Below, piece by piece: positions 21,809-40,657 of a stretch of 64,000 bases of DNA. The stretch's first letter is position 1. Each line of letters begins with the position of its first letter. The DNA is from Candidatus Kuenenbacteria bacterium. GTDB taxonomy: Bacteria > Patescibacteriota > Patescibacteriia > UBA2196 > GWA2-42-15. Below the pieces are notes generated by a model. The model searched no databases and was not told the DNA's origin. It saw only the letters and a program-made list of their open reading frames with translations. A program made the position numbers and the translations under genes. The stretch is from positions 1,241 to 65,240 of the forward strand of contig JAAZOM010000022.1 of NCBI GenBank assembly GCA_012797775.1, read 5' to 3'.

Positions 21809-22492
21809 ATGAGCCAAGTAGAAAATTTCAAGGACTGGAATGAAAAAATGGCCATCAAATACAACCCGGACCATTATCACAACAGCCGTAATATTTTTAT
21901 CCGTCTTTTGAGTCATTTGCGCACTCGGCTGATCATTCGTCTCCTCGACGTCAGGCCGAAAGACGAGGTGATCGACCTTGGCTGTGGCTCTGGCAATATG
22001 CTCGCCGCTATTCATAGGGGCCGCCTGACCGGCATTGATCTGTCCGCTTCACTTATTCAGTTGGCCGAAAATAAATTGAAGGGCAGTGGAGCCACTATTA
22101 TTGAGGGCAGTGTCGAAGACCTACCAGAGGTAATTCGTTCAAAAAAATATGACAAAATATTTTCCAGTGAAGTTATTGAACATCTAGAACACCCAGAAAA
22201 AATGATTGACGAGATCGTGGCCATTGCCAAGCCTGAGAGCCTGATAGTCATTTCTTTCCCCAACGAACACCTGATTGGCAAAATAAAATTTGTCCTGCTC
22301 AAGCTGGGACTATTCAAAATATTATTCAAGGGCCTGCCGCCCCAAATGGCGGATGAATGGCATTTGCACGAGATAAAACTTGAATATTTCAAACAATTAA
22401 TCTCCGGCCGCTTGCGCATTATCACCATCAAAAAGATTCCTTCTTGTCTTTTGCCGCTCCATTATGTTTTTCTTTGCCAGATAAATAAATAA
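21809..22492 (+). CDS. Class I SAM-dependent methyltransferase.
   Basis: VIDLGCGSGNM and the VIEHLEHP motif. Confidence 0.6.
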   Translation: MSQVENFKDWNEKMAIKYNPDHYHNSRNIFIRLLSHLRTRLIIRLLDVRPKDEVIDLGCGSGNMLAAIHRGRLTGIDLSASLIQLAENKLKGSGATIIEGSVEDLPEVIRSKKYDKIFSSEVIEHLEHPEKMIDEIVAIAKPESLIVISFPNEHLIGKIKFVLLKLGLFKILFKGLPPQMADEWHLHEIKLEYFKQLISGRLRIITIKKIPSCLLPLHYVFLCQINK

Positions 22493-22496
22493 AATT

Positions 22497-24485
22497 ATGG
22501 CCCTTCTTATTTTTATAAAATTAATCATTTTCTGGGTGATCATCACTTTTTTTGCCTGGCGGCTAATGCTTTTGATATTTAAAGATGAGTCTAAGGAATT
22601 TTTGCTGACGCTGGCTTTGATCGCTGGGCCAGTTTTTTATATTTTTACTCTGAATATTTTGGGCCATTTTTTCCCTATAACTTTTTTATTCTTTTATGTT
22701 TTGGCCGTTTTTCTGATTATTGGTCTCGTGCTGTTTATTTTTACCCATAAAGATAAAATAAAATCTTTTTGGCTCTTGGACAAAAGATGGAGAAAAATTT
22801 TGCTTTTGACCATTATCGTCATTTTTCTCACCACCGGCTTGATCGCCGCTCGGGGCTATTCTGGTGATGAGTTTAATATCTTTAGCACCGTGCCTATGGC
22901 CGGCACGATCGCTGAGGGCAACTTCCCAGTGCGCTGGACAGTCGAGCCGCAGGTCATGGCTTATTATCATTATGGCATAGAGCTTTTTTCCGCCGCCATG
23001 TACAAAACCACAGACTTGCCTTTTTGGTATGGCGTGGATCTTTGCCGCGCTTTATTTACGATCTTATTTTTGGCTCTTATCTTTCTTGTACTTTTCAAAA
23101 TTACCAAGCATCCAGCCAAAAGTTATTTAGTTTCTCTTCTGACGCTCTTTGGCGGCGGTTTGGTTTGGATTTATGGTATTACCGGTTTTATTCATAGGAA
23201 TGCCGCTGCGCCCTGGAAATTTTTGCACCAAGGCACGACTTCGGGCGCGGCCGGACCACTGATCAGAGATATCCATATTCAGTGGGGGGCTATTTCTTTT
23301 CTCCTGATTCTGCTTGGTATTTTTCTTTATTTCAAAGCTGTAGAATACAAGAAAGAAAATAAACCCTGGCTCCCTATCGTCCTAATTAATATTATATCGC
23401 TAGCGGTTCTGGCCCTAGTCGGAGAGACCTACTTATTGGTTGAACTGTTGGTTTTTCTATTGTATCCCTTTGCCACTCTATTTATTAAAAGCCAGAAAAA
23501 ATATTTTAAAACCTATTTGCTGATTTCGCTCCTCACTGTGGCCGCCGTCTCTCTTATTGCCGCTTTCCAGGGCGGGGTATTAACAGAATTATTTCACCAG
23601 AGTTATGACCGCCATCCGCGTCCGACTGGCAACTGGTTCTTTTTCAATCATGAAAAAATTGGTTTTCTTTGGAGCTCTCAATCACTGATCAATTTTGGTC
23701 TGCCCTTATTTCTTATCTTGCCTTGTTTGTATTTGCTATATGTTCGCTTCAGGAAAGGGGAGTATTATCAAGAACTTTTATTTTTGCTTTTGCTTTCTTT
23801 CGCCTGTTTTGCCGTGCCCTTTGTAATGGAGCTTGGCCCGCGCTATGACTATGAAATGCTCCGCTATCTTTATCTGGCCCCGCCATTTTGGAGTCTGGCC
23901 ATTGGACTTGTCTTAGCCGATATTCTCATTGATAATCAACGGGTCAAAAAAATTTGGCATCGCCTCGGCTGGTTAGTCGTATTTTTTATGGTGCTAGTTG
24001 GCTTTCTTTTCCAAATTATTTTTATGGTAGTCCCCATCGGCCGTTCCAGTCAGAGATTTACTCCATTTTTTTACAGCTTTCCACCGCCGACCGCCATAGA
24101 GTCTCGGGCTTTTGCTTGGATCAAGAAAAATACCACTATCAATGATTATTTTTTTAGCTACAGCCCCAGCCAAGACGATTCCACTATCTATAATAAAAAG
24201 ATGAATATTTTTGCTGGCCGCATCGCCCCAGTTTACAGTTATATGGCTGACCACAAGATGCTCAACCGCGACCAGCTGGTTCAGGACTTAATCGCCGCTT
24301 TTGGCCGAGCCGAAGTCTCTTGCCTGCCGGCGGATTTAAAATTTATGGGCTATAAATATCTCTATGTGAGTGAATATTGGCCAGCCGGCCTTGAAGAGAA
24401 GTGCCAGGCCAATAATAAATTAGAATTAAAATATGAGGATTCTAAAAATGGTTCTTTCGCCCGTATTTATAAGATAAATTATTAA
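22497..24485 (+). CDS. Large polytopic membrane protein, possibly a GT-C fold glycosyltransferase or polymerase.
   Basis: At least 12 TM helices and a soluble C-terminal domain. Confidence 0.35.
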   Translation: MALLIFIKLIIFWVIITFFAWRLMLLIFKDESKEFLLTLALIAGPVFYIFTLNILGHFFPITFLFFYVLAVFLIIGLVLFIFTHKDKIKSFWLLDKRWRKILLLTIIVIFLTTGLIAARGYSGDEFNIFSTVPMAGTIAEGNFPVRWTVEPQVMAYYHYGIELFSAAMYKTTDLPFWYGVDLCRALFTILFLALIFLVLFKITKHPAKSYLVSLLTLFGGGLVWIYGITGFIHRNAAAPWKFLHQGTTSGAAGPLIRDIHIQWGAISFLLILLGIFLYFKAVEYKKENKPWLPIVLINIISLAVLALVGETYLLVELLVFLLYPFATLFIKSQKKYFKTYLLISLLTVAAVSLIAAFQGGVLTELFHQSYDRHPRPTGNWFFFNHEKIGFLWSSQSLINFGLPLFLILPCLYLLYVRFRKGEYYQELLFLLLLSFACFAVPFVMELGPRYDYEMLRYLYLAPPFWSLAIGLVLADILIDNQRVKKIWHRLGWLVVFFMVLVGFLFQIIFMVVPIGRSSQRFTPFFYSFPPPTAIESRAFAWIKKNTTINDYFFSYSPSQDDSTIYNKKMNIFAGRIAPVYSYMADHKMLNRDQLVQDLIAAFGRAEVSCLPADLKFMGYKYLYVSEYWPAGLEEKCQANNKLELKYEDSKNGSFARIYKINY

Positions 24486-24490
24486 TTCTC

Positions 24491-25345
24491 ATGTTGTCAG
24501 CCAAGATTATTCAAAATTTAAAATGTCCCCATTGTTTGGCCGGCTTAAAACATTCCGAGCATAATTTTTTGTGTGAGCACTGCCAAAAAGAATATGCCAT
24601 TACCGATGGCGTCGTAAGTTTTGGGCATTTTACTGAGGATAAAGCCAACGCCAGCGCTGACAATCTCATCAGCCGGCTAAAAAACTTTTTTAAAAGATAT
24701 TCCGCTTTTTACAACTTTCTCTATTACGCTTTCGGCGGGTTCTTCGTCGGTCTTAGCGCTAGGCAAGCTATTTGGAGATTAGATCAAGATAAACTAATAC
24801 TCAATCTCGGCTCAGGCATCAAACGCATCCGGCCGGAGGTGATTAATATTGATTTTTTGCCATTTAAAAATGTTGATATTGTCGCTGATATTACCCACTT
24901 GCCATTTGCTGATAATTCCGTTGACGCGATTATCAATGAATTTGTGCTTGAGCATGTCAAAAATCCAGAGGCTATCATCACTGAAATAAAAAGGGTTTTA
25001 AAACCCGGCGGCTTGGTCTATGTCTCCACACCTTTTGTTGAGAGCTTTCATTCTTCACCCCACGATTACCAGCGCTGGACCAAGCCCGGGTTGATTCATC
25101 TCATGAAAGATTTTCAATTAGAAAAAGTTGGTATTCGCTCCGGCCCCACCTCAGCGCTCTTGTCAATTTTAAATGAGTGGTTGGCGGTACTCTTGAGTTT
25201 TGGCTGGCGACCGCTAGAACAAATTTGGCTGATGTTTTTTACTATTATTACCAGTCCTTTAAAGCTATTGGATTATTTTATGTGGCGCTTGCCCAATGCC
25301 GATAATATTTCCTATGCTTTTTATTATTTAGGCAAGAAATCATAA
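24491..25345 (+). CDS. SAM-dependent methyltransferase with an N-terminal Trm112-like zinc ribbon.
   Basis: CPHC..CEHC, then NLGSG..VDAIINEFVLEHV..LKPGG. Confidence 0.6.
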   Translation: MLSAKIIQNLKCPHCLAGLKHSEHNFLCEHCQKEYAITDGVVSFGHFTEDKANASADNLISRLKNFFKRYSAFYNFLYYAFGGFFVGLSARQAIWRLDQDKLILNLGSGIKRIRPEVINIDFLPFKNVDIVADITHLPFADNSVDAIINEFVLEHVKNPEAIITEIKRVLKPGGLVYVSTPFVESFHSSPHDYQRWTKPGLIHLMKDFQLEKVGIRSGPTSALLSILNEWLAVLLSFGWRPLEQIWLMFFTIITSPLKLLDYFMWRLPNADNISYAFYYLGKKS

Positions 25346-25348
25346 TTT

Positions 25349-25873
25349 ATGAAAAACAAATTTTTTATTATAGCCGTTCTCATTGCTCTTGGTTTTGCCA
25401 GTCGCCTTTTCAGCTATCCGCCCAACTTTTCACCCTTGGGTGCCATTGCTCTTTTTGCCGGCTTTTATTTTTTAAAACGCACTTCATTGTTGGTACCTAT
25501 TATTATCCTGGTTGCCTCGGATATTTTTATTGGTTTTTATGATTGGCGTCTGATGGCTTCGGTTTATGCCAGTTTCGTTTTGATTGGGCTCGTTGGTTCT
25601 TATCTAAAAAAACACTATCATTGGTGGTCAGTTGGACTCGGGTCAGTCATTGGCTCCTTGTTATTTTTTATTATTACCAATCTGGCCTTTTGGTATTTTG
25701 GCGGCTTTTATTCCTTGGATTTAGCCGGCCTAGCTTCTTGTTTTACATTAGCCATTCCATTTTTCAAAAATACTCTGATTGGCGACCTGTTTTTTACTAC
25801 GATTTTATTTGGGATTTATAGTCTGGCCCCATATTTACAGAAATTAACAGCAAGAAAGATTGTCCAAGGATAA
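25349..25873 (+). CDS. Small polytopic membrane protein, possibly an ECF-type S component.
   Basis: Five or six TM helices, about 170 aa, immediately upstream of the B12-dependent radical SAM gene. Confidence 0.3.
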   Translation: MKNKFFIIAVLIALGFASRLFSYPPNFSPLGAIALFAGFYFLKRTSLLVPIIILVASDIFIGFYDWRLMASVYASFVLIGLVGSYLKKHYHWWSVGLGSVIGSLLFFIITNLAFWYFGGFYSLDLAGLASCFTLAIPFFKNTLIGDLFFTTILFGIYSLAPYLQKLTARKIVQG

Positions 25874-25901
25874 TCAGTATTATTTATATATTTGTATTAG
25901 T

Positions 25902-27314
25902 ATGAAAATTCTCTTCATTATCCCTCCCTATGATCTCATGGCCAAGGGTTATGGCTCAAAGAAAAAATTGCGCGCTGGTTTTTTCCCACCCTTGGGCGTG
26001 GGTTATTTGGCCGCCCCGCTATTGCAATCTGGCCACAATGTAAAAATCATTGATTGTCCGCCGCTGGACTACCAAAACGAAGATGTCGGCCGGATAGTTG
26101 ACGATTTTCGGCCAGATGTTATTGGTATTTCCTCTCTTTCTGCTTCGGCCGAAGAGGCTTACAGCCTGATAAAATATTTAAAAAATTTATATCCAGCAAT
26201 TCCTATCATTTTTGGCGGGGCGCATGTTACCTGTTTCCCGGAAAAGATCATCGAGGCAGTGCCCATGGTTGATTGCCTTTCCTATGGGGAAGGGGAGATT
26301 ACTTTCCAAAAAATTGTTGATTCTTTGATTAAAACAGGTACTATTGATAAAAATATCCCCGGCATCTGGGTCAAAAATGAGGCTGGTCAATTTGTAAAAA
26401 ATCCGCCTCCGCCAGCCATTATGAATATTGATGAGCTCTTACCGCCGGCTTACGAATTGTATGACTATAGCATCTACATGCCCCTGCCTTTGCAATATAA
26501 AAAATTGCCAGCGGCCAACGTCATCACTTCCCGCGGTTGCCCTTGGGGACATTGTACTTTTTGTTTTGAATCTGGCCGCGCTTCTCAAAAGTATCGCCGC
26601 CATAGTCCTGAGCGAGTAGTTTCCGAAATAAAAAATCTTTATGAAAATTTTGGTATTCGCGAGATCACTTTTTGGGATGATAATTTTTTGGTTAATGAGC
26701 AGTGGATTTTAGAATTTTGCGATTTATTGGACGCCAGTGGCCTAAAAATTCCTTGGTCAGCCTGTGGCCGGGTGAATACCGTCACCAAAACCATGCTCGA
26801 ACGCGCTAAAGAATCAGGCTTGTGGTGTGTTTTTTATGGTTTTGAGACCGGCAACGAAGATTTATTATTGCGCATCAAAAAAGGAGCGACCCTGGAGCAA
26901 GCGCGCCAAGCGGCCCAATGGACTATAGACCTTGGTATTGATATCCGCGGCTCTTTTATGTTGGGGCTACCTGGTGAGACGCCGGGCAAGGCTTTGAAAA
27001 CAATCCAATTCGCTAAGGACCTAAAAATACCCTTTGCTCAATTTCTCCTGACTTTTCCCGAATGGGGGACAGAGCTCTATGATGATGCCTTGGAAAGCGG
27101 TCAGATGGTTTCTTCTTATGGCGGTCGGACAACTGCCACCTATGTGCCCGCCGGTTACAAAAATGCCGAAGAACTACGCGCCATGCAAAAACGCGCTTAT
27201 CATTCTTTTTATTTCAACCCGGCTTTTATTTGGCTCCATATGAAGCGCCTGACTAGTTGGAGCGAAATAAAACAATACTATCTCGGCCTGAAATATATTT
27301 TAGGAGTGAGTTAA
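25902..27314 (+). CDS. B12-binding radical SAM protein (class B radical SAM, methyltransferase-like).
   Basis: N-terminal cobalamin-binding Rossmann-like domain (MKILFIIPPY..GISSLSASAEEAY), then CPWGHCTFC (CX3CX2C). Confidence 0.65.
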   Translation: MKILFIIPPYDLMAKGYGSKKKLRAGFFPPLGVGYLAAPLLQSGHNVKIIDCPPLDYQNEDVGRIVDDFRPDVIGISSLSASAEEAYSLIKYLKNLYPAIPIIFGGAHVTCFPEKIIEAVPMVDCLSYGEGEITFQKIVDSLIKTGTIDKNIPGIWVKNEAGQFVKNPPPPAIMNIDELLPPAYELYDYSIYMPLPLQYKKLPAANVITSRGCPWGHCTFCFESGRASQKYRRHSPERVVSEIKNLYENFGIREITFWDDNFLVNEQWILEFCDLLDASGLKIPWSACGRVNTVTKTMLERAKESGLWCVFYGFETGNEDLLLRIKKGATLEQARQAAQWTIDLGIDIRGSFMLGLPGETPGKALKTIQFAKDLKIPFAQFLLTFPEWGTELYDDALESGQMVSSYGGRTTATYVPAGYKNAEELRAMQKRAYHSFYFNPAFIWLHMKRLTSWSEIKQYYLGLKYILGVS

Positions 27315-27455: not shown

Positions 27456-29141
27456 ATGATATTATCTTTTATAAAAAAACACTACCTTATCATCTCGATT
27501 TTGGCTATCGCTTTTATTTTGCGGCTAGTTGGGATTTTATATGGCCATCCATTAGCCCTGGTCAATGATGAAACACCCACGCTGGCTGCTAGTTTGAAGA
27601 TGATTGGCACCAGCTCACTGCGCGCCAATGCTTTTCAGTATTATTATCCGGCTGGCCTCGCCTATGTCTTTCTTCCATTTTTAGCTCTTTATCTAGTTTT
27701 TGCTAGGATTTTTGGGATATTTGGCAGTATCGCCGAGATCAAGGATATTGTTCTTTTAAATATTGGTTATTTCGCACCGGTCGCCAGGTTTGTCAGCGTT
27801 ATTCTAGGCACTGCCTCCGTTTTTTTGGTTTACCACATCAGTCAAAGATTATTTAGCCATAAAAAAATCGGCCTTTTGGCCGCTTGGTTTTTGGCTATCA
27901 ATTTTTTTCATGTGGCTAATTCTCATTATGGTCAGACTTGGACAGCCCAGTCTTTTTTTATTTTATTAGTACTGTTTTGGGCGGTTTATTTTTATCAAAA
28001 AGAAAAAATTTCTCGCTATGATTATCCCTTGGCTGGTATTTTTATCGGTTTGGCCTTTAGCATCAACTTTGTTGGTATTATCAGCTATGTTTGGTTTTTA
28101 TTGGCTCACTGGCTGAAAAATAAGGGCCAAAAGTTTGTAAAAATTTTTATTGCCAATAAGAATTTTTGGCTGGCCAATCTGGTTTTATTATTAATGATTG
28201 CTTTGGTTTATTATCTCAATCCTTTTGGCTTGAATAATTATTTTGGCCGAATTTTTAATGACAACCCCGCAACCAATAGTTACTCCTTTTTTAGTTTTAC
28301 TAGTTTAAAGATTTTATTTTCTTATCTCAAAAATGGCTTTTTAGCGGAGCCGTTATTATTTCTCCTAATTATTCCTGCCGCCCTTATTCTTTGGAGAAAG
28401 CATAAAATTGCTTTTTGTTTTTTAATACCTTGGCTGATTATTTATTTGCTTTTTCTGGCCCCATTGACCAACCCGATGGTTAGATATCTGTTGCCGACCA
28501 TTCCTTTGATGTCTATTGTTGTCGCTTTCTTTATTCACTATCTTTTTGAAAAATTTTCCGCCAAAATAAAAATTTTTATTATCATTATTTTTCTTTTGAG
28601 CTTGCCCAATCTTTTTTTTAGTTTGTTGCTTGATTATCGGATGACCAGACAAGATACCCGCCTCTTGGCTTACAGCTGGGTAGTCAATAATATCAAAAGT
28701 GGCAGCCATATCAAAAATTTAGATCTAGGCGCGGAAATTCCCTTTGTGGAAAGCAAAGAAATAGTCAGCCTGATAAAAGAAAAATTGCCCGAGCTTTATT
28801 CCAGCAAAAGAAAATATTTATCTTCACTAGAGGAGGAAAATTATCCCGATCCCAATTATGCCATTATCAATTATCCTGATCTGGTAGCCGCCGATTATGA
28901 TTTCGAATATTTGATTGTGAGTGACTTTGATAAAAATAATTTAATAAACAAAACCAAACCAACAGCTGCTTCCCAAAAGCTGATAAAATACTTTTATCCA
29001 AGTGAAAATAGCCCCCTGCCAACCAAAAGTGAGCTGGAGTTACCCTTCAATCTTTATTCGTTCGATCCCTGGTTTTTGCTCCGTTTCTATGATTATTATG
29101 GCCCCTATATTGAGATTTACGAGCTAAAAAAGACGCCATGA
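27456..29141 (+). CDS. Polytopic membrane glycosyltransferase, GT-C fold, ArnT/PMT-like (GT39/GT83).
   Basis: First loop HPLALVNDETPTLAASLKM (DE motif) and more than 10 TM helices. Confidence 0.45.
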   Translation: MILSFIKKHYLIISILAIAFILRLVGILYGHPLALVNDETPTLAASLKMIGTSSLRANAFQYYYPAGLAYVFLPFLALYLVFARIFGIFGSIAEIKDIVLLNIGYFAPVARFVSVILGTASVFLVYHISQRLFSHKKIGLLAAWFLAINFFHVANSHYGQTWTAQSFFILLVLFWAVYFYQKEKISRYDYPLAGIFIGLAFSINFVGIISYVWFLLAHWLKNKGQKFVKIFIANKNFWLANLVLLLMIALVYYLNPFGLNNYFGRIFNDNPATNSYSFFSFTSLKILFSYLKNGFLAEPLLFLLIIPAALILWRKHKIAFCFLIPWLIIYLLFLAPLTNPMVRYLLPTIPLMSIVVAFFIHYLFEKFSAKIKIFIIIIFLLSLPNLFFSLLLDYRMTRQDTRLLAYSWVVNNIKSGSHIKNLDLGAEIPFVESKEIVSLIKEKLPELYSSKRKYLSSLEEENYPDPNYAIINYPDLVAADYDFEYLIVSDFDKNNLINKTKPTAASQKLIKYFYPSENSPLPTKSELELPFNLYSFDPWFLLRFYDYYGPYIEIYELKKTP

Positions 29142-30274
29142 GAGTTATTATCCTTGCCAACCACCTAGAGGCGACTGACGGCTGGAGCCGCTATGCTTAT
29201 GATCTCGCCAAAAACCTAAAAGCCGCTGGCCACGAGATTCTTTGTTTGGTCAATAAAAAATCCTCTGCTGATATTGGTCAGAGAGTGGTTTTTGGCAGCC
29301 CCTTGGGCTACCTAGCCAACCCTTGGCGATCTTTCAAAACTGGCAAAAAAATTCAGTCGATATTTTTTGAATTTCAGCCAGACATTATCCATGTCGTTAC
29401 CGAACCCTATGCCAGCTGTTTAATATTTTGTCGTTACCCCAAATCCAAGATAATCATGACTATCCATGGCACCTATGCTTATCCACCAGCACTTTTATCC
29501 AGTTCCCTTAAACATTTTCTGGCCCGCCTGTTGACCACCAGTGTTTATAAAAAAATAACTACTGTTATTGCTGTTAGTTCTTTTACCAAAAATCACTTGA
29601 TCAAAAAAATTAATTCTTCAAAACTCAGAGCCAAAACAAAAGTAATTACCAATGGTATAGATTTGGTCTCATTCCCGCTTTTGAATACCGCCCCGGCTAG
29701 AGACAACAAAATTAAAAAAATTATGTTTGTCGGTGGCATCAAATCTGGCAAAGGAATTTTAGAAGCTCTGGCTGGTTTGCTTTATTATAAAAATAATTTT
29801 TCTGAAGAGTTCCAGTTTATTATTATTGGTCAAGCCGAACCCGAGACATCCTATTTTGGCGCTTTACAAAAATTTATTAATGAGAGCAATTTGATTGACC
29901 AGGTAGTTTTTCGCGGTCGCATCAGTCATGAAGAATTATTGGCTGCATACAAAGAAGCCGATTTGTTTCTGATGCCCTCTCTTTGTGTTGATGATAAATG
30001 GCTTGAAGGCTTTGGTTTGGTTTATCTGGAGGCCGCGAGCCAAGGTGTGCCCTGCCTTGGCTCCAAAGAATCTGGTGCTATTGATGCTATTGTTGATGGA
30101 GAGACCGGTTATCTTGTCGACGCCAGAGATCCCGTTGATATTGCCAAGCATATTGATTTAGTGCTCAACAAAAAAACAATCAATCCGGCTGAGTGTCTTG
30201 CCTGGGCCGAAAAGAATGATATCAAAAACAAAATTAAAGAAATAACAGAACTATACCGCTCCGCATTATTATAA
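29138..30274 (+). CDS. Glycosyltransferase family 4.
   Basis: EGFGLVYLEAASQGVPCLGSK..ETGYLV. Confidence 0.65.
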   Translation: MRVIILANHLEATDGWSRYAYDLAKNLKAAGHEILCLVNKKSSADIGQRVVFGSPLGYLANPWRSFKTGKKIQSIFFEFQPDIIHVVTEPYASCLIFCRYPKSKIIMTIHGTYAYPPALLSSSLKHFLARLLTTSVYKKITTVIAVSSFTKNHLIKKINSSKLRAKTKVITNGIDLVSFPLLNTAPARDNKIKKIMFVGGIKSGKGILEALAGLLYYKNNFSEEFQFIIIGQAEPETSYFGALQKFINESNLIDQVVFRGRISHEELLAAYKEADLFLMPSLCVDDKWLEGFGLVYLEAASQGVPCLGSKESGAIDAIVDGETGYLVDARDPVDIAKHIDLVLNKKTINPAECLAWAEKNDIKNKIKEITELYRSALL

Positions 30275-30281
30275 TATTTTT

Positions 30282-31493
30282 ATGAAAATAGTTATCGTTT
30301 CCAACTCTTTTTCTCCCCGCGAGGGCGGCGCTGCTGCTATCGCCTTTGAGCAGGCCAAATTATTATCAGATCTTGGCCATCAGGTTTTTGTTTTTTCCGG
30401 TGTTGCCGACAAAAATATTGGCTGGTCCAAAGAATCAGGTTTATCTGTTTATCGTTTGGTCACGCCAGGCTTGCCTTGGTTTTTGCGTTCTTATTTTTGT
30501 CTCCGTAATAAAAGGATAGAAGATGAATTTAAGAAATTTTTGGCTGAAGTAAGCCCAGAAGTTATCCACTTTCACAATCTCTATTACCAATTTCCTTTTT
30601 CTTTATTTAAAATAGCCAAAAATTTTACACCTCGCACCCTTTTTACTGTTCATGACGTGATGACCTTTAGCTATACCAAGCTTAGCCACTTTATTGATCA
30701 GAAATATAATTTAGAAAATATTGATACTATTAATTACCATTTATCTTTGTGGTGGCAGCTCAAGCAAAGCAAAAAAGGTTTTAATCCTTGGCGCAATATT
30801 ATTATCCGCCATTATTTAAAATATTTAACCAAAATATTCAGTGTTAGCGGTGAACTCAAAAAAGCTCTAGAGCAAAATAAAATAAAAAATATTACAACTA
30901 TTCACAATGGCATCAATGTTGCCGATTGGGCGGTAGGGGAGAGCGAAGCGCAAAAATTCAAAAAAGAATTAGGTTTGGATAATAAAAAAATTATTCTTTT
31001 CGCCGGCCGCTTGAGCGGCTACAAGGGCACCAAACAAATTATGGCCGCCCTGGAAATTATTACCAAGACAATTCCCGAAGCCATGCTTTTGGTTTTAGAT
31101 AGCCAAAATAATTATCAGAATAGTCAGCCCTATGTTCATTTGGCTGGTTCGGCCAGTCGCGAGCAAATGAAATATTATTACGCCATGAGTGATCTTGTAG
31201 TTGTGCCCTCGATTTGTTTTGATTCTTTTCCCACGATCAATCTAGAAGCCATGGCCTGTCACAAGCCAGTCATCGCCACCATTTTCGGGGGGAGCAGAGA
31301 ATTAGTTGAAGATCAAAAAACAGGCTATTTAGTTAACCCGTTACATATTGATGAATTAGCCGAAAAAATAATTTACCTTTTGCAAAATCCAAAGCTGGCT
31401 AGGGAAATGGGGGAGTCTGGTTATCAAAAAGTAAAAAATGAGTTTAATCAAGAAAAATGGATCCAAGAAATTTTAAACTGCTATCATCATTAA
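30282..31493 (+). CDS. Glycosyltransferase family 4.
   Basis: FPTINLEAMACHKPVIAT..KTGYLV. Confidence 0.65.
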   Translation: MKIVIVSNSFSPREGGAAAIAFEQAKLLSDLGHQVFVFSGVADKNIGWSKESGLSVYRLVTPGLPWFLRSYFCLRNKRIEDEFKKFLAEVSPEVIHFHNLYYQFPFSLFKIAKNFTPRTLFTVHDVMTFSYTKLSHFIDQKYNLENIDTINYHLSLWWQLKQSKKGFNPWRNIIIRHYLKYLTKIFSVSGELKKALEQNKIKNITTIHNGINVADWAVGESEAQKFKKELGLDNKKIILFAGRLSGYKGTKQIMAALEIITKTIPEAMLLVLDSQNNYQNSQPYVHLAGSASREQMKYYYAMSDLVVVPSICFDSFPTINLEAMACHKPVIATIFGGSRELVEDQKTGYLVNPLHIDELAEKIIYLLQNPKLAREMGESGYQKVKNEFNQEKWIQEILNCYHH

Positions 31494-35150: not shown

Positions 35151-36461
35151 TTAGGCCATGGCCTGTAGTTCCTCGTCTTCAGTATACAAAATCTCTAACC
35201 CCTCAATTACCGGCGTGTCTTTATATTGTTTATTAAAGCCATCAAAAAATGCTTTTATCATTTCCAGTTTAATCCGGTAATTTTCTTTATTGTCGGTCGC
35301 CTTTAGGTGCGCCCGCTGACTGCTTTTACAATAAGCACACAGAGGATTCATCTGGCCGTCTCGTGCATTGACTGTCTGCCGCAGATATTGCAAAACCGGA
35401 TGTTGCCAGATTTTATCAAATTCAACTTGGCCATATTTTTCAATATGTTTTTGGTAATTGAAGATAAAAGGATTAAAAACATTACAGCAACCCAGATAAT
35501 ATGAGTCCTGATGTGAATAACAAGAGCGTAGTTGTAATCCGACCCAAGGCGCATTGCAGGCGGTTGCCTTTCTGTCTTTATCTTCTCCTGGCTTCCTGTC
35601 TTTTTCTTTTTGGAAATATGGCGGCTCTTTGGGCAAAGCGGCAATCACTCCCTGCTCTTTGGCATAATTATAAAGGCGATCTATTTTTTTATTAATCTCA
35701 TCCACTTCGTCGTCTCGGACGATTATCTCCTTGAGGGCATGATTATAATCATGATAATGGTAAAGGCCAAAGAAATCTATTTTAAATTTTTTTATTAGAT
35801 CAATCATTTTGACCGCTTCATCTATATTGGCCTTATTCAAAGCATAAACCACGGTAATACGGGGTTTTTTATAATTACCATCCATTTTCTTTTTGGCGAG
35901 AGACACCAGATTGCCGATGACTGTTTCAAAGTCACCAGCCTGCAAGATTTTATAAGTTTCCGGCGTCGCCGCATGGATAGAAAAAGTTATGGCGTCAAAA
36001 CCGATTTTTAGCATGGTATCCTGTATTTTTTCATTTAGCCCCATGCCGTTAGTAGACATGCCCAAATCCAGCTTGTGTTTCAATTTTAAATAACCAATTA
36101 TTTCCTTGAAATGAGGGTTTAATACGGACTCACCAATAAAACCCATAAAATTTATACTGCCAGCCTTATCAAAGATTTTATCAAACGCCTTTATTTGTTC
36201 CGGCGTTATATTATTAGCCACCCTTTCAATATTTTTTTCTCTCAGGTTGTGAACCGAGCAGATCGGGCAGAGTAAATTACAGCAATTGCTCAAGCTCATG
36301 GTAATTTTCGTCGGCTGGCCCTTGGGATTTTTTTTGTTTTTTCCCGCCTCTGCCAAGGCCAACATCTTGTTCAATTTTTTCTTTTTACTTGGTAGCACCA
36401 AAGAAGCCATCGCGTTTATCGGCTGTGTCGAGACGATCTTCTTGATATTCTTTTTAATCAT
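35151..36461 (-). CDS. Radical SAM protein with a C-terminal Cys-rich SPASM-like domain.
   Basis: CNLLCPICS (CX3CX2C), a TIM-barrel core, and C-terminal CNAPW..SC..GCCN..CAYC. Confidence 0.55.
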   Translation of the reverse strand: MIKKNIKKIVSTQPINAMASLVLPSKKKKLNKMLALAEAGKNKKNPKGQPTKITMSLSNCCNLLCPICSVHNLREKNIERVANNITPEQIKAFDKIFDKAGSINFMGFIGESVLNPHFKEIIGYLKLKHKLDLGMSTNGMGLNEKIQDTMLKIGFDAITFSIHAATPETYKILQAGDFETVIGNLVSLAKKKMDGNYKKPRITVVYALNKANIDEAVKMIDLIKKFKIDFFGLYHYHDYNHALKEIIVRDDEVDEINKKIDRLYNYAKEQGVIAALPKEPPYFQKEKDRKPGEDKDRKATACNAPWVGLQLRSCYSHQDSYYLGCCNVFNPFIFNYQKHIEKYGQVEFDKIWQHPVLQYLRQTVNARDGQMNPLCAYCKSSQRAHLKATDNKENYRIKLEMIKAFFDGFNKQYKDTPVIEGLEILYTEDEELQAMA

Positions 36462-37201
36462 AATCCGTTTGCTTTAATTTTTTTAATCAGCCATTTCCGG
36501 CTCCGCAATTTTAGATCGCGGTCATGCAAACGCACAAAGTCTTCGTCCTGAATAAATTCAATGCCCACCATTTGCTTATTACTATCAAGCATATAGCGGT
36601 TCGCTATTACCTTTTTGATATTTGTTTCCTTGAGCGCCTCATAGGTTTTTATACTCCAGACATTGCCCGAGGGTACAAAGATTTCTATGCTTCTCCCAAA
36701 ATAATTTTCTAATATTTTTTGTGATTCTAAAATATGTTCGCGATGCAAAGAGCTTGGCAAGTCTGGCCAGAACTCGCGGTGCATTTTTCTATTGGAATAT
36801 CGGGAATAGGGGAGATGATTACCCACAACGCAATGCGTCAATCCGTGGTTAGCAATGGTTATGAGTTCCTTATCGGCGGCCTGTTTCAACATTGCTGCTT
36901 CGGCCGGGAATTTCTCAGGAAAAGGTGTTAAATTTGAATTTTCATCTACCCAAGTTGCCGCTATAGAGACAATCGGCACAATGCCATTATCCTCAAAAAT
37001 TTTTAAATATTTTCTCCAATCTTCTGCTGTTAGCTCTTCATATTTTGCCCAGCCGCGGAAGGGCCAGACTCTTTTTAAAAATCCATAATTAGCCCAAGGA
37101 AAATAAAAATAAGTTATCCCGCGCCAGGTAAAACTTTTTTTGCCCCATTGGTTATAATATTTGGTCGATGCGCCGATGTCATCAATGCGCCATTGTTTCA
37201 T
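36458..37201 (-). CDS. Putative polysaccharide deacetylase-like protein (DUF2334/CE4-like).
   Basis: RIDDIGAS and IANHGLTHC motifs. Confidence 0.35.
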   Translation of the reverse strand: MKQWRIDDIGASTKYYNQWGKKSFTWRGITYFYFPWANYGFLKRVWPFRGWAKYEELTAEDWRKYLKIFEDNGIVPIVSIAATWVDENSNLTPFPEKFPAEAAMLKQAADKELITIANHGLTHCVVGNHLPYSRYSNRKMHREFWPDLPSSLHREHILESQKILENYFGRSIEIFVPSGNVWSIKTYEALKETNIKKVIANRYMLDSNKQMVGIEFIQDEDFVRLHDRDLKLRSRKWLIKKIKANGL

Positions 37202-38901
37202 TTGGTCAAAATTATAAATAATCCGCTATAATACTGGTCTTGTTTTTTATCCAGCTTCAACATTCTTATCAGTAAAAGCCAAGGTAGAAAAAAAAGATAA
37301 TAACCTATCTTGCGTTTTAATACAGAACCGCCCTGGGCCGATTTCCTTTTTGTCATATCCCAGATAGCCGTATGACTGTTGCCAAAGGTTGTTATTTCTA
37401 CCTTATCAAAACCGCTTTCTTTAAAAACCTTTTCTGCAAATTTTTTTGTCGGCCTTAGGTTGTCATCGTGCTCATTGCTAAAAAAGGGGATACTCAAAAG
37501 TGCTGCACCGCCAGGTTTTATTAAACGATACATTTCTCTTGTTGCTTTAGGGAAATCATTTAAGTATTCCACCACCTCCAAGCACAAAATAGAATCAAAA
37601 TAATTATCAGGGTAATTCAACCCCTTCTCAATATCTCCATATAAAACATTTGCTTCCTTGTTCTCTTCTAGGTCAATAGCTACCATTTCTTCGGCCTTTA
37701 TTATTTGGTCATAGCGCCTGTTTTTTGAGCCGATATCCAATACTCGCCCTTGGAGCAGCCAGATATTTTTTAAAAGCAATTTTTCTAGAGCATTACGATG
37801 CCAGGTAAATTTATAATAGCGGTAAATCATCTTCTTCGCCGCTTTTATTTTTTGGATAAAATTTTTCATTATCAATATTTTATTAAAAACAAACAAAGTT
37901 ATTTTTGTTCTATAGAGTAAAATTTTATTAATTTTTTTACGCTTACCGTCGGTTAGTCGTTCTATTTTATTAATATATTTATAGGCTATCGTTTGAATGG
38001 TTTCATATTTTATGTCCCCGACATAAGCTTGGTATTCCCGACTGATCAATTCTATTTTTTCTATCAGTTCTTTTTCATTGGTAAACAACTCGCCACCTTT
38101 TTGTACTATTTCTCCATTACCGCCACTATTTAGTGCTGCTACTGGCAAGCCGCAAGCCAGTGCCTCTATTATCGCGTTGGAGCAAGCGTCGTCTTTAGTC
38201 GCTGTAATATAAATATCACGTTCTTTAAGTTTATCAGCCAATTTTTCGCTTGTCAGCGGAGGGATAATTTTTATATTTTTAAAATGAACGGGACAATTTC
38301 CCACAAAAGACATTTCATAGCGCGACCAGTCCAGATTTTTGTCCAAGTATTCATAAAACTCAAAGCCTTTTTTTATGTTGCCCGACCAACTGCTGGCGAT
38401 CAATTTTGTTTTTTGCGAATTATGATTTGGCCTATTATCAGTATTAAAAATTTTTGGGTCAACCGCATTGCCGATAATACTATATCTCTTACTATTAAAT
38501 CCCAGTTTTTTTGATTCTTCGTACAGCCAGCCTGAAACAAAAATAGCCCAATCAGGTAATTTACTCGCCACCCCATTCATCAGGCGATCTAAAATAGCCC
38601 ACTCCTTCCCTTTATGATAGCCAAGGATCCCCCCCAGACGGTGAATAAATATTTTATTCGGATATTTTAACTTCAGCTCTACTACCTCCGGCAGTTTTTG
38701 ATAGCTATAAAATATAATACATTCAGCCTTTTCTGTTTCTTCCTCATATATCCCCAAATTAATAAATTCATCCCTCAAGACTTTTAGGAATTGATTGGCG
38801 CCGCCCCAGGGGCCGTCTTTAAAATCGTATAATATTTTAATCTTTAAATTGCTGTTCATAATATTTTTTGTAAAAACCTTTTTTATCCAAAAGCTCCTCA
38901 T
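37198..38901 (-). CDS. Bifunctional GT-B glycosyltransferase (N-terminal) fused to a class I SAM methyltransferase (C-terminal).
   Basis: N-terminal IIEALACGLPVAALNSGGNGEIV; C-terminal VLDIGSKNRRYD..LCLEVVEYL..LIKPGG. Confidence 0.55.
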   Translation of the reverse strand: MRSFWIKKVFTKNIMNSNLKIKILYDFKDGPWGGANQFLKVLRDEFINLGIYEEETEKAECIIFYSYQKLPEVVELKLKYPNKIFIHRLGGILGYHKGKEWAILDRLMNGVASKLPDWAIFVSGWLYEESKKLGFNSKRYSIIGNAVDPKIFNTDNRPNHNSQKTKLIASSWSGNIKKGFEFYEYLDKNLDWSRYEMSFVGNCPVHFKNIKIIPPLTSEKLADKLKERDIYITATKDDACSNAIIEALACGLPVAALNSGGNGEIVQKGGELFTNEKELIEKIELISREYQAYVGDIKYETIQTIAYKYINKIERLTDGKRKKINKILLYRTKITLFVFNKILIMKNFIQKIKAAKKMIYRYYKFTWHRNALEKLLLKNIWLLQGRVLDIGSKNRRYDQIIKAEEMVAIDLEENKEANVLYGDIEKGLNYPDNYFDSILCLEVVEYLNDFPKATREMYRLIKPGGAALLSIPFFSNEHDDNLRPTKKFAEKVFKESGFDKVEITTFGNSHTAIWDMTKRKSAQGGSVLKRKIGYYLFFLPWLLLIRMLKLDKKQDQYYSGLFIILTK

Positions 38902-40657
38902 GGGTTCCTTGTTCTAATATTTTACCATCTACTACCACGACGATATTGTCAGCGCTTTTGATGGTTGATAGGCGGTGAGCGATTGCCACCACCGTCTTTC
39001 CAGCCAAAACTTTCTCCAGCGAAGCTTGTATGGCCTTTTCTGTTTCTGTATCCAAAGAGCTGGTCGCTTCATCCAAAATCAAAAGTTCCGGATCTCTGAT
39101 AATTGCCCGAGCAATAGCAATTCTTTGTTTTTGGCCGCCAGAAAGACGTGCTCCTTTTTCTCCAACTATTGTTTCGTATTTTTGGGGCAGGGTCTCTATA
39201 AAATCATCTATTTGGGCTACCTTTGCGGCGCGCATAATATCCTCTTTGTTGGCTCCCCAGCAACCATAGGCGATATTGTTGGCAATAGTGTCATTAAATA
39301 TCACGATGTCTTGAGAAATATAACCCAGATGTTCTCTCCAAGTTTTAGTATTCACTTCTTTCATGTCAGTTTTGTCAACAAAAATTTGACCGCCCGTCGG
39401 CATTATTAGCCCGGATATTATATTCGCCAGAGTGGTTTTTCCTGACCCTGTCGGGCCGACTAGGGCAGTGATTTTGCCCTTGGGTATCACCAGATTGATT
39501 GATTCTAAAACATTATTCTCTTCCTCATATCTCAAATTAATATCTTTCAAGACAATCTCTTTTTCTAGTTTTGTGATTTTTTGATTTCCATTCCAAGCTT
39601 TTTCTTTTTGTGCCTCTCTGATTATGGCCTCATAGGCCTTATAGGGTTCCATCAACTGGAACATCCTTGCTACTGCCCGCAAGCTGGCGTTGGCCTCGTT
39701 AAACATTTTTAGAAAGATATAGAAATAAGTTATCAAAACCGGCACATAAAAAGTTATATTTAAACCCCATATTTTTGTTACAAAAGTAAAAATACTGACT
39801 AGAGCGGTCATAACGGCAACCTCTGATAGGGGAGCAATTATTGCCTCATAGCTTTCATACTTATAGTCAAGATCGGCCATTGAATTGGATATTTGGTAAA
39901 AATTTTTTCTTTCATATTCTTCAGCTGTAAAAATTTTGACAGATTTTATATTACCCAACTTTTCTATCAATTGGCTATGAAGAATCGCTGACTCTTTGGT
40001 GGCCTGCATGCTAACCTTCTTGACCTTGGCGAATAAATTTTTTATCGGGATGGTTATGACTGCTTCCAAAATTATTGCCATCAGGGTAAATTTCCAAGAA
40101 ACAAAAACAAGTAAAATCAAATAAATTATTATTTTACTCACCTTTGAGATCATTTCTAAGAGTGTAAAATAAAAGCTAACTATTGATTTTGTAAAAATAG
40201 ATATACTTGTCACCAAATTGCCAGCCTTCATCTTATTTGCGAATTGTAAATTAGCCTCCGATGATGCTTCAAACATTTCATATTGCAAATCACGCCTAAT
40301 ACAAGAACTTACCCGGCTGATGGTTATTGTTTTTAGATAAGTAAAAAAACTTTTTAGCACGATCATCCCCAAAGCAAAAAACATTAATTTTAATACAATA
40401 TCTGTTTTATCTCCGGTAAAGAAATGCCCCCAAAATTTTTCTAGAAATGGTATTGTTGCTTGTGCGCTGGAAGACGGATCGATTATACTCTGAAAAAAAG
40501 GAATCATTGTACCCAAGCTAAAACCCTCGAAAATTGATGCCAGTACACTAAAAACAATAGACAAGGCAGTCAATTTTTTGTATTTTTTGAGTTTGCCGTA
40601 GGCCTTTTTAAAATATTCCTGCCTTTCTGGTGTAAAATATTTCATATTTAATCCCAA
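38837..40657 (-). CDS. ABC half-transporter exporter with fused TMD and NBD, MsbA/PglK-like (the start is likely the ATG at 40645).
   Basis: Six N-terminal TM helices, Walker A GPTGSGKTT, signature LSGGQKQRIAIARA and Walker B ILDEATS. Confidence 0.75.
   Translation of the reverse strand: MGLNMKYFTPERQEYFKKAYGKLKKYKKLTALSIVFSVLASIFEGFSLGTMIPFFQSIIDPSSSAQATIPFLEKFWGHFFTGDKTDIVLKLMFFALGMIVLKSFFTYLKTITISRVSSCIRRDLQYEMFEASSEANLQFANKMKAGNLVTSISIFTKSIVSFYFTLLEMISKVSKIIIYLILLVFVSWKFTLMAIILEAVITIPIKNLFAKVKKVSMQATKESAILHSQLIEKLGNIKSVKIFTAEEYERKNFYQISNSMADLDYKYESYEAIIAPLSEVAVMTALVSIFTFVTKIWGLNITFYVPVLITYFYIFLKMFNEANASLRAVARMFQLMEPYKAYEAIIREAQKEKAWNGNQKITKLEKEIVLKDINLRYEEENNVLESINLVIPKGKITALVGPTGSGKTTLANIISGLIMPTGGQIFVDKTDMKEVNTKTWREHLGYISQDIVIFNDTIANNIAYGCWGANKEDIMRAAKVAQIDDFIETLPQKYETIVGEKGARLSGGQKQRIAIARAIIRDPELLILDEATSSLDTETEKAIQASLEKVLAGKTVVAIAHRLSTIKSADNIVVVVDGKILEQGTHEELLDKKGFYKKYYEQQFKD

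What the first reader, a model, noticed from the sequence alone, without database searches (positions are those of the whole stretch)
25349..27314. B12-binding radical SAM enzyme inside the glycan cluster, preceded by a small membrane protein that could be a vitamin-uptake S component.
25902-27314 encodes an N-terminal cobalamin-binding domain plus CX3CX2C (CPWGHCTFC). This is the architecture of class B radical SAM methyltransferases that methylate unactivated carbons, including sugar C-methylation in antibiotic pathways. Its presence between methyltransferases and GTs suggests a C-methylated or otherwise radically modified sugar. An organism this streamlined is unlikely to make cobalamin. 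The immediately upstream 174-aa, five- to six-TM protein (25349-25873, overlapping by a few nt) has the size and topology of ECF-transporter S components, so a dedicated B12 uptake partner is a testable hypothesis.
Basis: inference. Interest (0 to 1): 0.55.

Follow-up and report, generated by a model that had tools for sequence, protein, structure and literature searches.

The report
Predicted vitamin B12 importer beside B12 enzyme
A small membrane protein of unknown function (Pfam family DUF6580), placed just upstream of a B12-type radical SAM enzyme in a sugar-coat gene cluster of a tiny "candidate phyla" bacterium, is very likely a vitamin B12 importer from a widespread transporter family that no paper has yet described.

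Summary
Both ORFs are real. 25902-27314 encodes a 470-aa protein with a Pfam B12-binding domain and a radical SAM core. Its cluster motif is CX4CX2C, not CX3CX2C. 25349-25873 encodes a 174-aa, six-helix protein of Pfam DUF6580.

- Its sequence profile hits only CbrT, the B12 S component, in the PDB (E 7e-5; hhalign 96.5%).
- In 72 of 78 species-level loci, DUF6580 lies co-directionally with B12-linked genes. These are a DUF4430 (transcobalamin C-terminal-type) protein, class II ribonucleotide reductase, BtuR or PduO adenosyltransferases, MetH, BtuB-like receptors, or B12 radical SAM enzymes.
- Cobalamin riboswitches precede its operon in 17 of 47 loci scanned.
- No ECF T or A genes lie near it anywhere, and CbrT's AxxxA docking motif is not conserved. 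BtuM-like solitary operation is therefore likely.

The radical SAM enzyme belongs to an uncharacterised orthologous group that travels with GT-C, GT2 and methyltransferase genes. It is probably B12-dependent. Its chemistry is open: it could be a methylase, or work like HpnJ or AprD4.

No paper in the searched library mentions DUF6580.

The parts
25349..25873 (+). DUF6580-family membrane protein (174 aa, 6 helices). Predicted cobalamin/cobamide importer with the ECF S-component fold, a remote homologue of CbrT.
25902..27314 (+). B12-binding-domain radical SAM enzyme (470 aa) of an uncharacterised orthologous group.
   Evidence: PF02310 and PF04055. No NCBIfam equivalog reached; HpnJ is best at 202.6 bits against a 577.6 cut-off. 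AF2 pLDDT 93.9. Foldseek hits: AprD4, MgmA, TsrM, OxsB, CysS, TokK.
25977..26315 (+). Cobalamin-binding Rossmann-type domain of the radical SAM enzyme (residues 26-138). SxL (S77-L79) and GG (G105-G106) are retained; DxHxxG is absent.
   Evidence: Pfam stretch 26-138. Column conservation and motif check.
26538..26564 (+). Radical SAM [4Fe-4S] cysteine motif CPWGHCTFC = CX4CX2C (C213, C218, C221).
   Evidence: Translation. Conserved in 116/120 homologues. The three cysteines are invariant in A3.
24491..25345 (+). Class I SAM-dependent methyltransferase. It ends 3 nt before the DUF6580 start and lies in the same probable operon.
   Evidence: Methyltransf_11 E 8e-16. Gene spacing. Same order in relatives L001/L002.
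22497..24485 (+). 662-aa polytopic membrane protein without a Pfam match, conserved at the same position in relatives.
   Evidence: No Pfam family. A 660-aa orthologue sits in L001/L002.
27456..29141 (+). PMT/PMT_2-like GT-C glycosyltransferase, the most constant neighbour of this radical SAM orthogroup.
   Evidence: PF02366 E 2.5e-5. PMT_2 lies next to the orthologous rSAM in L001, L085, L087 and L088.
29138..31493 (+). Two GT4 glycosyltransferases continuing the operon.
   Evidence: Glycos_transf_1/Glyco_transf_4.

Best explanation
The 174-aa protein is a member of Pfam DUF6580. I interpret DUF6580 as a family of cobalamin (cobamide) importers with the six-helix fold of ECF-transporter S components. 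It is a sister family to the B12 S component CbrT and is structurally closest to the solitary B12 transporter BtuM.

Proposed mechanism (inferred by analogy with S components and BtuM):
- The protein binds the corrinoid with high affinity on the outer face.
- It topples in the membrane and releases the corrinoid inside.
- Uptake is made directional by capture of the cofactor by its client enzymes or by adenosylation.
- In most genomes a membrane-anchored DUF4430 protein, which carries the domain found at the C-terminus of transcobalamins, is encoded immediately upstream and probably hands B12 to it.
- Energy coupling is most likely ECF-independent.

In this Kuenenbacteria-like genome the gene sits without DUF4430. 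It lies 3 nt after a methyltransferase gene and 28 nt before a B12-binding-domain radical SAM gene, inside a cell-surface glycan operon. Cofactor import would therefore be co-expressed with the only predicted B12 client in the window.

The radical SAM enzyme probably uses cobalamin plus a CX4CX2C-bound [4Fe-4S] cluster. It probably modifies a sugar or lipid-linked glycan intermediate handled by the adjacent GT-C, GT2 and GT4 enzymes. Whether it methylates or rearranges its substrate is not determined.
For: Shown by tools:
- Homology. The DUF6580 profile hits only CbrT (6FNP_A) among 177,635 PDB sequences, E 6.9e-5. hhalign against a CbrT-family alignment gives 96.5%, E 9.8e-10, over 141 columns. 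The shared motifs are R..PN.xP and S[DN]xxxGFxxW. 6FNP is ECF-CbrT (PMC5997447).
- Context in 80 species-level loci. 72 of 78 evaluable loci carry B12-linked neighbours:
  - DUF4430 in 58 loci, immediately adjacent in 54; 9 of 10 sampled ORFs pass Pfam's cut-off, the tenth just below
  - class II RNR in 17 and BtuR in 15
  - PduO-type adenosyltransferase in 4 and MetH in 4
  - TonB-dependent receptor in 10
  - B12 radical SAM enzymes in 8
  All 164 such genes are co-directional with DUF6580.
- Riboswitches. Cobalamin riboswitches (RF00174 or RF01482) lie upstream on the same strand in 17 of 47 loci scanned.
- DUF4430 partners have an N-terminal hydrophobic anchor. DUF4430 is the domain at the C-terminus of transcobalamins (PMC4350170; weak match to the transcobalamin-2 C-terminal region, chain residues 332-403 of 409).
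- Synteny. The order methyltransferase, DUF6580, rSAM, PMT_2, GT4 is conserved in a relative whose DUF6580 is 74% identical.
- Tight gene spacing, with no terminator-like site in the gaps flanking the DUF6580 gene.
- The BtuM precedent: solitary, co-localised with btuB and btuR, toppling model (PMC6072759).
Against: - There are no transport or binding data for any DUF6580 protein. Everything rests on fold, remote homology and gene context.
- In this window there is no DUF4430, no adenosyltransferase and no riboswitch. None of the 8 glycan-type loci scanned has a riboswitch either.
- The window's clade has Tyr where 45 of 50 family members have His23, so its ligand handling may differ.
- Solitary CbrT does not support uptake in E. 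coli. ECF independence is therefore not guaranteed, and a shared ECF module elsewhere in the genome cannot be excluded from a 64-kb window.
- The radical SAM enzyme's best structural match is AprD4. By my recollection AprD4 does not use B12.
Confidence: 0.75

Rival explanations
1. DUF6580 is a conventional ECF S component. It binds B12 but needs a shared EcfT/EcfAA' module encoded elsewhere in the genome, as group II S components such as CbrT do.
For: The closest sequence family is CbrT. Solitary CbrT is inactive in E. coli. Group II S components are normally unlinked to their ECF module (established knowledge; Rodionov et al. 2009, recalled, not read here).
Confidence: 0.22
2. In this particular clade the DUF6580 protein has been recruited to the glycan pathway and no longer imports B12. 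It might, for example, handle a lipid-linked sugar or another small molecule.
For: It lacks the usual DUF4430, adenosyltransferase and riboswitch companions. It has the clade-specific H23Y change. Related clusters carry a different small membrane protein at a similar position, a 117-aa protein with weak TMEM234/EamA-like matches in L085.
Against: All other invariant family residues are kept: R19, N26, D58, G62, F106, N111, W115, Y121, G127 and P137-F139. Its immediate downstream neighbour is a B12-domain enzyme. In other CPR loci DUF4430-DUF6580 pairs also sit next to paralogous B12 radical SAM genes inside glycan clusters (L009, L018, L046, L006, L030). That is what a cofactor-supply role predicts.
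Confidence: 0.08
3. One reading: the radical SAM protein is a class B cobalamin-dependent methyltransferase that C-methylates a sugar of the surface glycan.
For: Architecture of a B12-binding domain plus radical SAM core. Structural neighbours include the methylases MgmA, TsrM, CysS and TokK. The SxL...GG motif is retained. A predicted B12 importer is encoded directly upstream. Methylation is, to my knowledge, the commonest reaction of this architecture.
Against: Every named methylase model is far below cut-off: the RiPP C-methyltransferase model scores 121.7 against 281.85, HpnR 104 against 650, KedN5 98 against 700. The best model, HpnJ (202.6 bits), and BchE (157.9 bits) are not named as methylases in NCBIfam. 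The best fold hit is the dehydratase AprD4, which acts on an aminoglycoside sugar. Four class I methyltransferases already lie in the cluster. No substrate is known.
Confidence: 0.4
4. The radical SAM enzyme does not use cobalamin at all. It would be AprD4-like, with a vestigial Rossmann domain, and its adjacency to DUF6580 would be coincidental.
For: The best sequence and structural PDB match is AprD4. By my recollection AprD4 has a B12-like domain without B12. DxHxxG is absent.
Against: The AprD4 sequence match covers only the radical SAM core, residues 171-410. The N-terminal domain scores 80.8 bits on Pfam B12-binding against a 32.1 cut-off, and it keeps the canonical SxL-26-GG spacing. 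Gene order with DUF6580 is conserved in relatives. Other B12-domain radical SAM paralogues also co-localise with DUF4430-DUF6580.
Confidence: 0.12

Closest known systems
BtuM (solitary S-component-like vitamin B12 transporter, Thiobacillus denitrificans; PDB 6FFV, 8OVV, 8C7P)
   Different: No detectable sequence similarity: BtuM is not hit at E<=10 by the DUF6580 profile. There is no invariant cysteine equivalent to BtuM's cobalt-ligating Cys. Most DUF6580 genes have a DUF4430 partner, which is not reported for BtuM. The taxonomic range is Patescibacteria, Ignavibacteriota and Bacteroidota rather than Proteobacteria.
CbrT, the cobalamin-specific S component of ECF-CbrT (Lactobacillus delbrueckii; PDB 6FNP; Pfam PF12822)
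   Same: The only PDB sequence hit of the DUF6580 profile (E 6.9e-5). hhalign gives 96.5% over 141 columns with shared loop-1 and TM3 motifs. The inferred substrate class is the same.
   Different: A different Pfam family: the window protein does not hit PF12822 or PF07155. The AxxxA motif is not conserved. No ECF module is seen in any neighbourhood. CbrT needs the ECF module for transport.
Cobalamin-dependent (class B) radical SAM enzymes: TsrM, TokK, CysS, MgmA, OxsB. Also HpnJ and BchE (NCBIfam models) and the structurally related AprD4.
   Same: N-terminal Rossmann B12-binding domain plus a partial TIM-barrel radical SAM core. Foldseek TM-scores (query- or target-normalised) run from about 0.42 to 0.78 across these hits, AprD4 highest at 0.76-0.78. 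Full-length alignment to the HpnJ model.
   Different: No equivalog threshold is reached. The cluster motif has one extra residue, CX4CX2C. The orthogroup is confined to glycan and GT-C contexts in CPR bacteria, DPANN archaea and Elusimicrobia. The reaction is unknown.
Transcobalamin, intrinsic factor and haptocorrin (eukaryotic B12 carriers) as the analogue of the DUF4430 partner proteins
   Same: DUF4430 is the domain found at the C-terminus of transcobalamins. Long CPR proteins combine an alpha/alpha-toroid with DUF4430 in the same order as I recall for transcobalamin, and give a weak PF01122 hit.
   Different: These partners are absent from this window. The bacterial proteins are membrane-anchored, and B12 binding has not been tested.

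Membership tests
Pfam DUF6580 (PF20221) | Score above the Pfam gathering threshold over the whole domain | tested here: met
   154.4 bits against a cut-off of 27, residues 3-160 on model positions 5-155 of 162.
ECF-transporter S component (superfamily) | Six-helix S-component fold | tested here: met
ECF-transporter S component (superfamily) | Sequence homology to an experimentally established S-component family | tested here: met
   Profile versus PDB hits CbrT only, E 6.9e-5. hhalign versus the CbrT family gives 96.5%, E 9.8e-10.
ECF-transporter S component (superfamily) | Match to a curated S-component model (Pfam PF12822 or PF07155, or NCBIfam) | tested here: not met
   Only DUF6580 is reported in Pfam at E<=0.01, and there is no NCBIfam hit.
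ECF-transporter S component (superfamily) | Works with an EcfT/EcfA/EcfA' energising module | tested here: inconclusive
   No ECF genes are in the window or beside the 80 homologues. Whole genomes could not be searched, and transport was not assayed.
ECF-transporter S component (superfamily) | Conserved AxxxA motif in TM1 used to dock on EcfT (feature recalled from Erkens et al. 2011) | tested here: not met
   The columns aligned to CbrT's AxxxA are Ala in 6 of 50 and 15 of 50 sequences. Leu, Ile and Val are commoner at both positions. The window protein itself happens to have A9 and A13.
BtuM family | Sequence similarity to BtuM and a conserved cobalt-ligating cysteine | tested here: not met
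   BtuM chains are not hit at E<=10. No invariant or nearly invariant Cys exists in the 50-sequence alignment.
BtuM family | Gene co-localised with btuB and btuR, in organisms without an ECF module (PMC6072759) | tested here: inconclusive
   A BtuB-like receptor is present in 10 loci and BtuR in 15. Absence of an ECF module is shown only for the neighbourhoods.
Cobalamin-dependent (class B) radical SAM enzymes | N-terminal cobalamin-binding Rossmann domain | tested here: met
   PF02310 at 80.8 bits against a 32.1 cut-off. S77-x-L79 and G105-G106 have canonical spacing. Structural matches to TsrM, OxsB, TokK, CysS and MgmA.
Cobalamin-dependent (class B) radical SAM enzymes | Three-cysteine [4Fe-4S]/SAM motif | tested here: met
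   C213, C218 and C221 are invariant. The spacing is CX4CX2C instead of CX3CX2C.
Cobalamin-dependent (class B) radical SAM enzymes | Bound cobalamin and methyl transfer (or another B12-dependent radical reaction) | not testable with these tools
   Needs purified protein.
HpnJ (TIGR03471) and other named B12 radical SAM equivalogs | Score above the NCBIfam curated cut-off | tested here: not met
   HpnJ 202.6 against 577.6, ApyD 168 against 750, BchE 157.9 against 481, HpnR 104 against 650.

The most novel reading that the evidence does not exclude
DUF6580, usually together with a membrane-anchored DUF4430 (transcobalamin C-terminal-type) binder, is a previously undescribed, ECF-independent vitamin B12 uptake system. 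It would be the main route of cobamide acquisition in Patescibacteria (CPR), and an inner-membrane partner of BtuB-like receptors in Ignavibacteriota and Bacteroidota. Its repeated insertion next to B12-domain radical SAM genes in CPR surface-glycan clusters would then mean that these ultra-small bacteria spend scavenged B12 on radical modification of their cell envelope.
Probability: 0.55. Interest if true: 0.75.

Novelty: new variant of a known kind. Interest (0 to 1): 0.66.

Why it matters
- I found no published account of B12 uptake in Patescibacteria, which I take to lack cobalamin synthesis (background knowledge, not tested here) but which do encode B12-dependent ribonucleotide reductase and many B12-domain radical SAM enzymes.
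- Assigning DUF6580, with DUF4430, to B12 import would give a directly testable answer.
- It would also add a third independent B12-specific branch to the S-component fold.
- For the window itself, it strengthens the case that the adjacent radical SAM enzyme really uses cobalamin. It points to an unknown radical modification of a CPR surface glycan.

Tried and rejected
- Literature. No paper in the library mentions DUF6580. No paper combines Patescibacteria with energy-coupling factor transporters, or CPR with B12, RNR and transporter.
- I first recalled that Bacteroides BtuH carries DUF4430. The literature indicates that the B. thetaiotaomicron B12 binders carry DUF4465 (abstract of PMC13398666, which also names BtuH), so that link was dropped.
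- Riboswitch in the window. None was found at Rfam gathering thresholds, and none in 8 glycan-type loci.
- ECF module. The only ABC ATPase in the window is a 606-aa fused exporter. ABC ATPases near homologues belong to ABC-2, ABC-3 or Wzt systems.
- Single-sequence PDB search of the membrane protein was only suggestive (E 0.085). A profile was needed.
- NCBIfam gave no equivalog for either protein.
- The B12 radical SAM genes next to DUF6580 in other loci are paralogues (25-33% identity), not orthologues of the window enzyme. They say nothing about its reaction.
- The promoter and terminator scan was uninformative beyond showing no terminator-like site in the gaps on either side of the DUF6580 gene.
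Full report
**What is in the sequence**

The region holds a run of co-directional, tightly spaced genes (gaps of 4, 5, 3, 28, 141, -4 and 7 nt):
- a class I methyltransferase (21809-22492)
- a 662-aa membrane protein with no Pfam match (22497-24485)
- a second class I methyltransferase (24491-25345)
- the 174-aa ORF (25349-25873)
- the radical SAM ORF (25902-27314)
- a PMT-like GT-C glycosyltransferase (27456-29141)
- two GT4 glycosyltransferases

The wider stretch from about 13.9 to 45.7 kb is a surface-glycan cluster. It contains GT4s, GT2s, RmlD, an epimerase, an AsnB-like amidotransferase, several methyltransferases, a second radical SAM without a B12 domain, a fused ABC exporter and a Bac_transf initiating transferase. 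The nearest relatives of both proteins come from Patescibacteria, with Candidatus Kuenenbacteria closest.

- The cluster motif CPWGHCTFC is CX4CX2C, and the extra residue is conserved in 116 of 120 homologues.
- The two genes do not overlap if the enzyme starts at ATG 25902. The 470-471-aa homologues indicate that it does.

**The membrane protein: fold and homology**

It matches Pfam DUF6580 at E 3.9e-45 and nothing in NCBIfam. A 50-sequence alignment (A1) gave an AlphaFold2 model with pLDDT 92.5 and six long helices.

- then ThiT, FolT, RibU, BioY, PanT, CbiM and YkoE

Foldseek agrees.

At the sequence level, a profile of A1 searched against all 177,635 distinct PDB sequences hits exactly one. 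That hit is chain A of 6FNP (E 6.9e-5), a 182-aa chain matching Pfam ECF_trnsprt and hence the S component CbrT of the ECF-CbrT vitamin B12 transporter. Profile-profile comparison with a 23-sequence CbrT-family alignment gives 96.5% probability (E 9.8e-10) over 141 columns. The two families share the motifs R..PN.xP in loop 1 and S[DN]xxxGFxxW in helix 3.

So both the best structural match and the only sequence match are B12-specific members of the S-component fold.

**The membrane protein: what its family is associated with**

A scan of one genome per species found at least 570 relatives. I kept 80 loci: mostly Patescibacteria, plus about a dozen Ignavibacteriota or Bacteroidota. I clustered all neighbouring ORFs without prior labels and then named the clusters with Pfam. 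The result was one-sided.

72 of 78 evaluable loci carry at least one B12-linked gene within about 8 kb:

| Neighbour | Loci |
|---|---|
| DUF4430 protein | 58 (immediately adjacent in 54; of 10 sampled ORFs, 9 pass Pfam's gathering score, the tenth just below) |
| Class II (TSCPD-containing) ribonucleotide reductase | 17 |
| CobA/BtuR adenosyltransferase | 15 |
| TonB-dependent receptor | 10 |
| B12-binding-domain radical SAM enzymes | 8 |
| PduO-type adenosyltransferase | 4 |
| B12-dependent methionine synthase MetH | 4 |

All 164 of these genes are on the same strand as DUF6580.

Recurrent operon layouts are:
- NrdR, RNR-II, BtuR, DUF4430, DUF6580
- a small DUF4430 protein, a long alpha/alpha-toroid+DUF4430 protein, DUF6580
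- in Ignavibacteriota: riboswitch, BtuB-like receptor, DUF6580, MetH

DUF4430 is the domain at the C-terminus of transcobalamins. The long CPR proteins pair it with an alpha/alpha-toroid, in what I recall as the transcobalamin domain order, and show weak Cobalamin_bind and transcobalamin C-terminal-region matches. All ten sampled DUF4430 partners have an N-terminal hydrophobic anchor.

**Riboswitches**

Rfam scans at gathering thresholds found cobalamin-class riboswitches on the DUF6580 strand, upstream of its operon, as follows:
- 7 of 12 non-CPR loci (RF00174, 76-108 bits), directly upstream of DUF6580 in L074 and L080
- 6 of 10 CPR loci of the RNR/BtuR type, each directly upstream of the DUF4430-DUF6580 pair
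- 4 of 9 Magasanikbacteria-type loci (RF01482)

None was found in 8 further CPR loci or the window, or in 8 glycan-type loci.

A genome carries only a handful of such riboswitches. Seventeen of 47 loci with one correctly placed and oriented is therefore far beyond chance; this is my own reasoning, not a computed statistic. It is the same kind of evidence that originally identified CbrT and BtuM.

**Energy coupling**

No EcfT or ECF-type ATPase gene appears in the window. The only ABC signature belongs to a 606-aa fused exporter. None appears next to any homologue: the ABC ATPases found nearby belong to ABC-2, ABC-3 or Wzt systems.

The TM1 AxxxA motif, present in CbrT and recalled as the EcfT docking element, is not conserved in DUF6580. 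In the Ignavibacteriota operons DUF6580 is the only inner-membrane candidate downstream of the BtuB-like receptor. BtuM shows the same pattern and works without an ECF module.

I therefore favour solitary, BtuM-like operation: toppling, facilitated diffusion, then intracellular trapping. I give this roughly 55-60%. Solitary CbrT is inactive in E. coli, and a shared ECF module elsewhere in the genome cannot be excluded.

**What is particular to this window**

Here, and in its closest relatives (DUF6580 74-91% identical; synteny seen in L001/L002), DUF6580 has no DUF4430, adenosyltransferase or riboswitch nearby. Instead it sits immediately upstream of the B12-domain radical SAM gene.

The same clade alone replaces the nearly invariant His23 with Tyr. 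All other invariant residues are kept.

In several other CPR genomes the DUF4430-DUF6580 pair also lies inside glycan clusters next to B12-domain radical SAM genes. Those enzymes are paralogues (25-33% identity) rather than orthologues. This fits a general cofactor-supply role better than a specific enzymatic partnership.

**The radical SAM enzyme**

- Pfam finds B12-binding (80.8 bits) and Radical_SAM (79.7 bits).
- The canonical SxL-26-GG part of the cobalamin motif is retained, at S77-L79 and G105-G106.
- DxHxxG is absent in all 40 aligned homologues. To my knowledge this is normal for cobalamin-dependent radical SAM enzymes, which bind B12 base-off/His-off.
- No NCBIfam equivalog is reached. 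The best are HpnJ (202.6 bits against a 577.6 cut-off, aligned full-length), ApyD and BchE.
- The model (pLDDT 93.9) is closest to AprD4, a diol dehydratase that acts on the aminoglycoside sugar paromamine and, as I recall, does not use B12. Next come MgmA, TsrM, OxsB, CysS and TokK.
- Its orthogroup (470 aa, conserved CX4CX2C) occurs in Patescibacteria, DPANN archaea, Elusimicrobia and Omnitrophota. It lies next to PMT_2-type GT-C enzymes, GT2s, class I methyltransferases, AsnB-like amidotransferases and often further B12 radical SAM genes.

I conclude that it is probably a cobalamin-dependent radical SAM enzyme (about 80%). It probably acts on a sugar or a lipid-linked glycan intermediate. 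Its reaction is undetermined: methylation about 40%, with HpnJ- or OxsB-like rearrangement or AprD4-like chemistry as live alternatives.

**Comparison with what is known, and novelty**

DUF6580 works like BtuM and is homologous to CbrT, but it is a member of neither.
- It fails the curated S-component models, lacks BtuM's cysteine, and lacks CbrT's docking motif.
- It usually has a DUF4430 partner, a feature I did not find described for CbrT or BtuM in the passages I read.
- No paper in the searched library mentions DUF6580. NCBI labels some members 'DUF6580 family putative transport protein', so a transport role has been guessed. I found no B12 link anywhere.

I therefore rate it a new variant of a known kind: a third B12-specific branch of the S-component fold, and the first candidate B12 importer for Patescibacteria. 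Its ECF framing and the C-methylation claim are not established.

All functional statements remain predictions until binding and complementation tests are done.

Noticed in passing
window 26538-26564 (+): The radical SAM cluster motif is CX4CX2C (CPWGxCxFC), conserved in 116/120 homologues. Four distant homologues have the canonical CX3CX2C (CPWRCTFC or CPYRCTFC).
   Followed up: partly
window 25415-25417 (residue 23 of the 174-aa protein): His23 is present in 45/50 family members. It is Tyr only in the window protein and its four closest relatives, the clade whose gene sits next to the B12 radical SAM without a DUF4430 partner. This may mean altered corrinoid ligation or specificity.
   Followed up: partly
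L017:4601-6391, L038:4605-7562 (and about 25 similar ORFs in other loci): Patescibacteria encode long proteins (roughly 560-1000 aa), presumably secreted or membrane-anchored, that combine an alpha/alpha-toroid (Prenyltrans/SQHop_cyclase-like, weak Cobalamin_bind PF01122) with DUF4430. By my recollection this is the two-domain order of eukaryotic transcobalamin. They lie directly upstream of DUF6580 and are often preceded by an AdoCbl riboswitch.
   Followed up: partly
L051:6899-7459 and eight other loci: A conserved protein of about 186 aa, with no significant Pfam match (only a far-sub-threshold Cep192_D6 hit), lies between the long transcobalamin-like protein and the small DUF4430 protein in most of the nine loci. 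It may be a further component of the uptake system.
   Followed up: no
L057:9091-9228: A cobalamin riboswitch lies downstream of DUF6580 and a PduO-type adenosyltransferase, and precedes a 467-aa gene of unknown family. This could be another B12-regulated unknown.
   Followed up: no
L060, L061, L062, L082 (for example L062:7899-8459 plus the next ORF): A truncated second DUF6580 ORF of about 108 aa directly follows the full-length copy in several loci labelled Saccharibacteria. L031 has two full copies in convergent orientation.
   Followed up: no
L067:582-1673, L065:6513-7832, L080:10826-11887: In Ignavibacteriota and Bacteroidota operons, a protein of about 350-440 aa lies next to the BtuB-like receptor within riboswitch-controlled operons (upstream of it in L067, downstream in L065 and L080); the one member scanned (L065) carries a Por_Secre_tail (T9SS sorting) domain. 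It may be a surface B12-capture protein.
   Followed up: no
window 35151-36461 (-): A second radical SAM protein (436 aa, canonical CNLLCPIC, no B12 domain) lies next to a DUF2334 protein in the same glycan cluster. Homologues of it also sit near DUF6580 in L006 and L018.
   Followed up: no
window 37198-38901 (-) and 40648-42348 (-): Two large fusion proteins combine a GT1-type glycosyltransferase domain with a methyltransferase domain (Methyltransf_11 and FkbM-type). They flank a fused ABC exporter at 38837-40657, which suggests a methylated exported glycan.
   Followed up: no
window 22497-24485 (+): A 662-aa polytopic membrane protein without any Pfam match, conserved at the same operon position in the Kuenenbacteria relatives (660 aa in L001/L002). 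Similar Pfam-less proteins of about 590-600 aa occur in other rSAM clusters (L086, L088).
   Followed up: no
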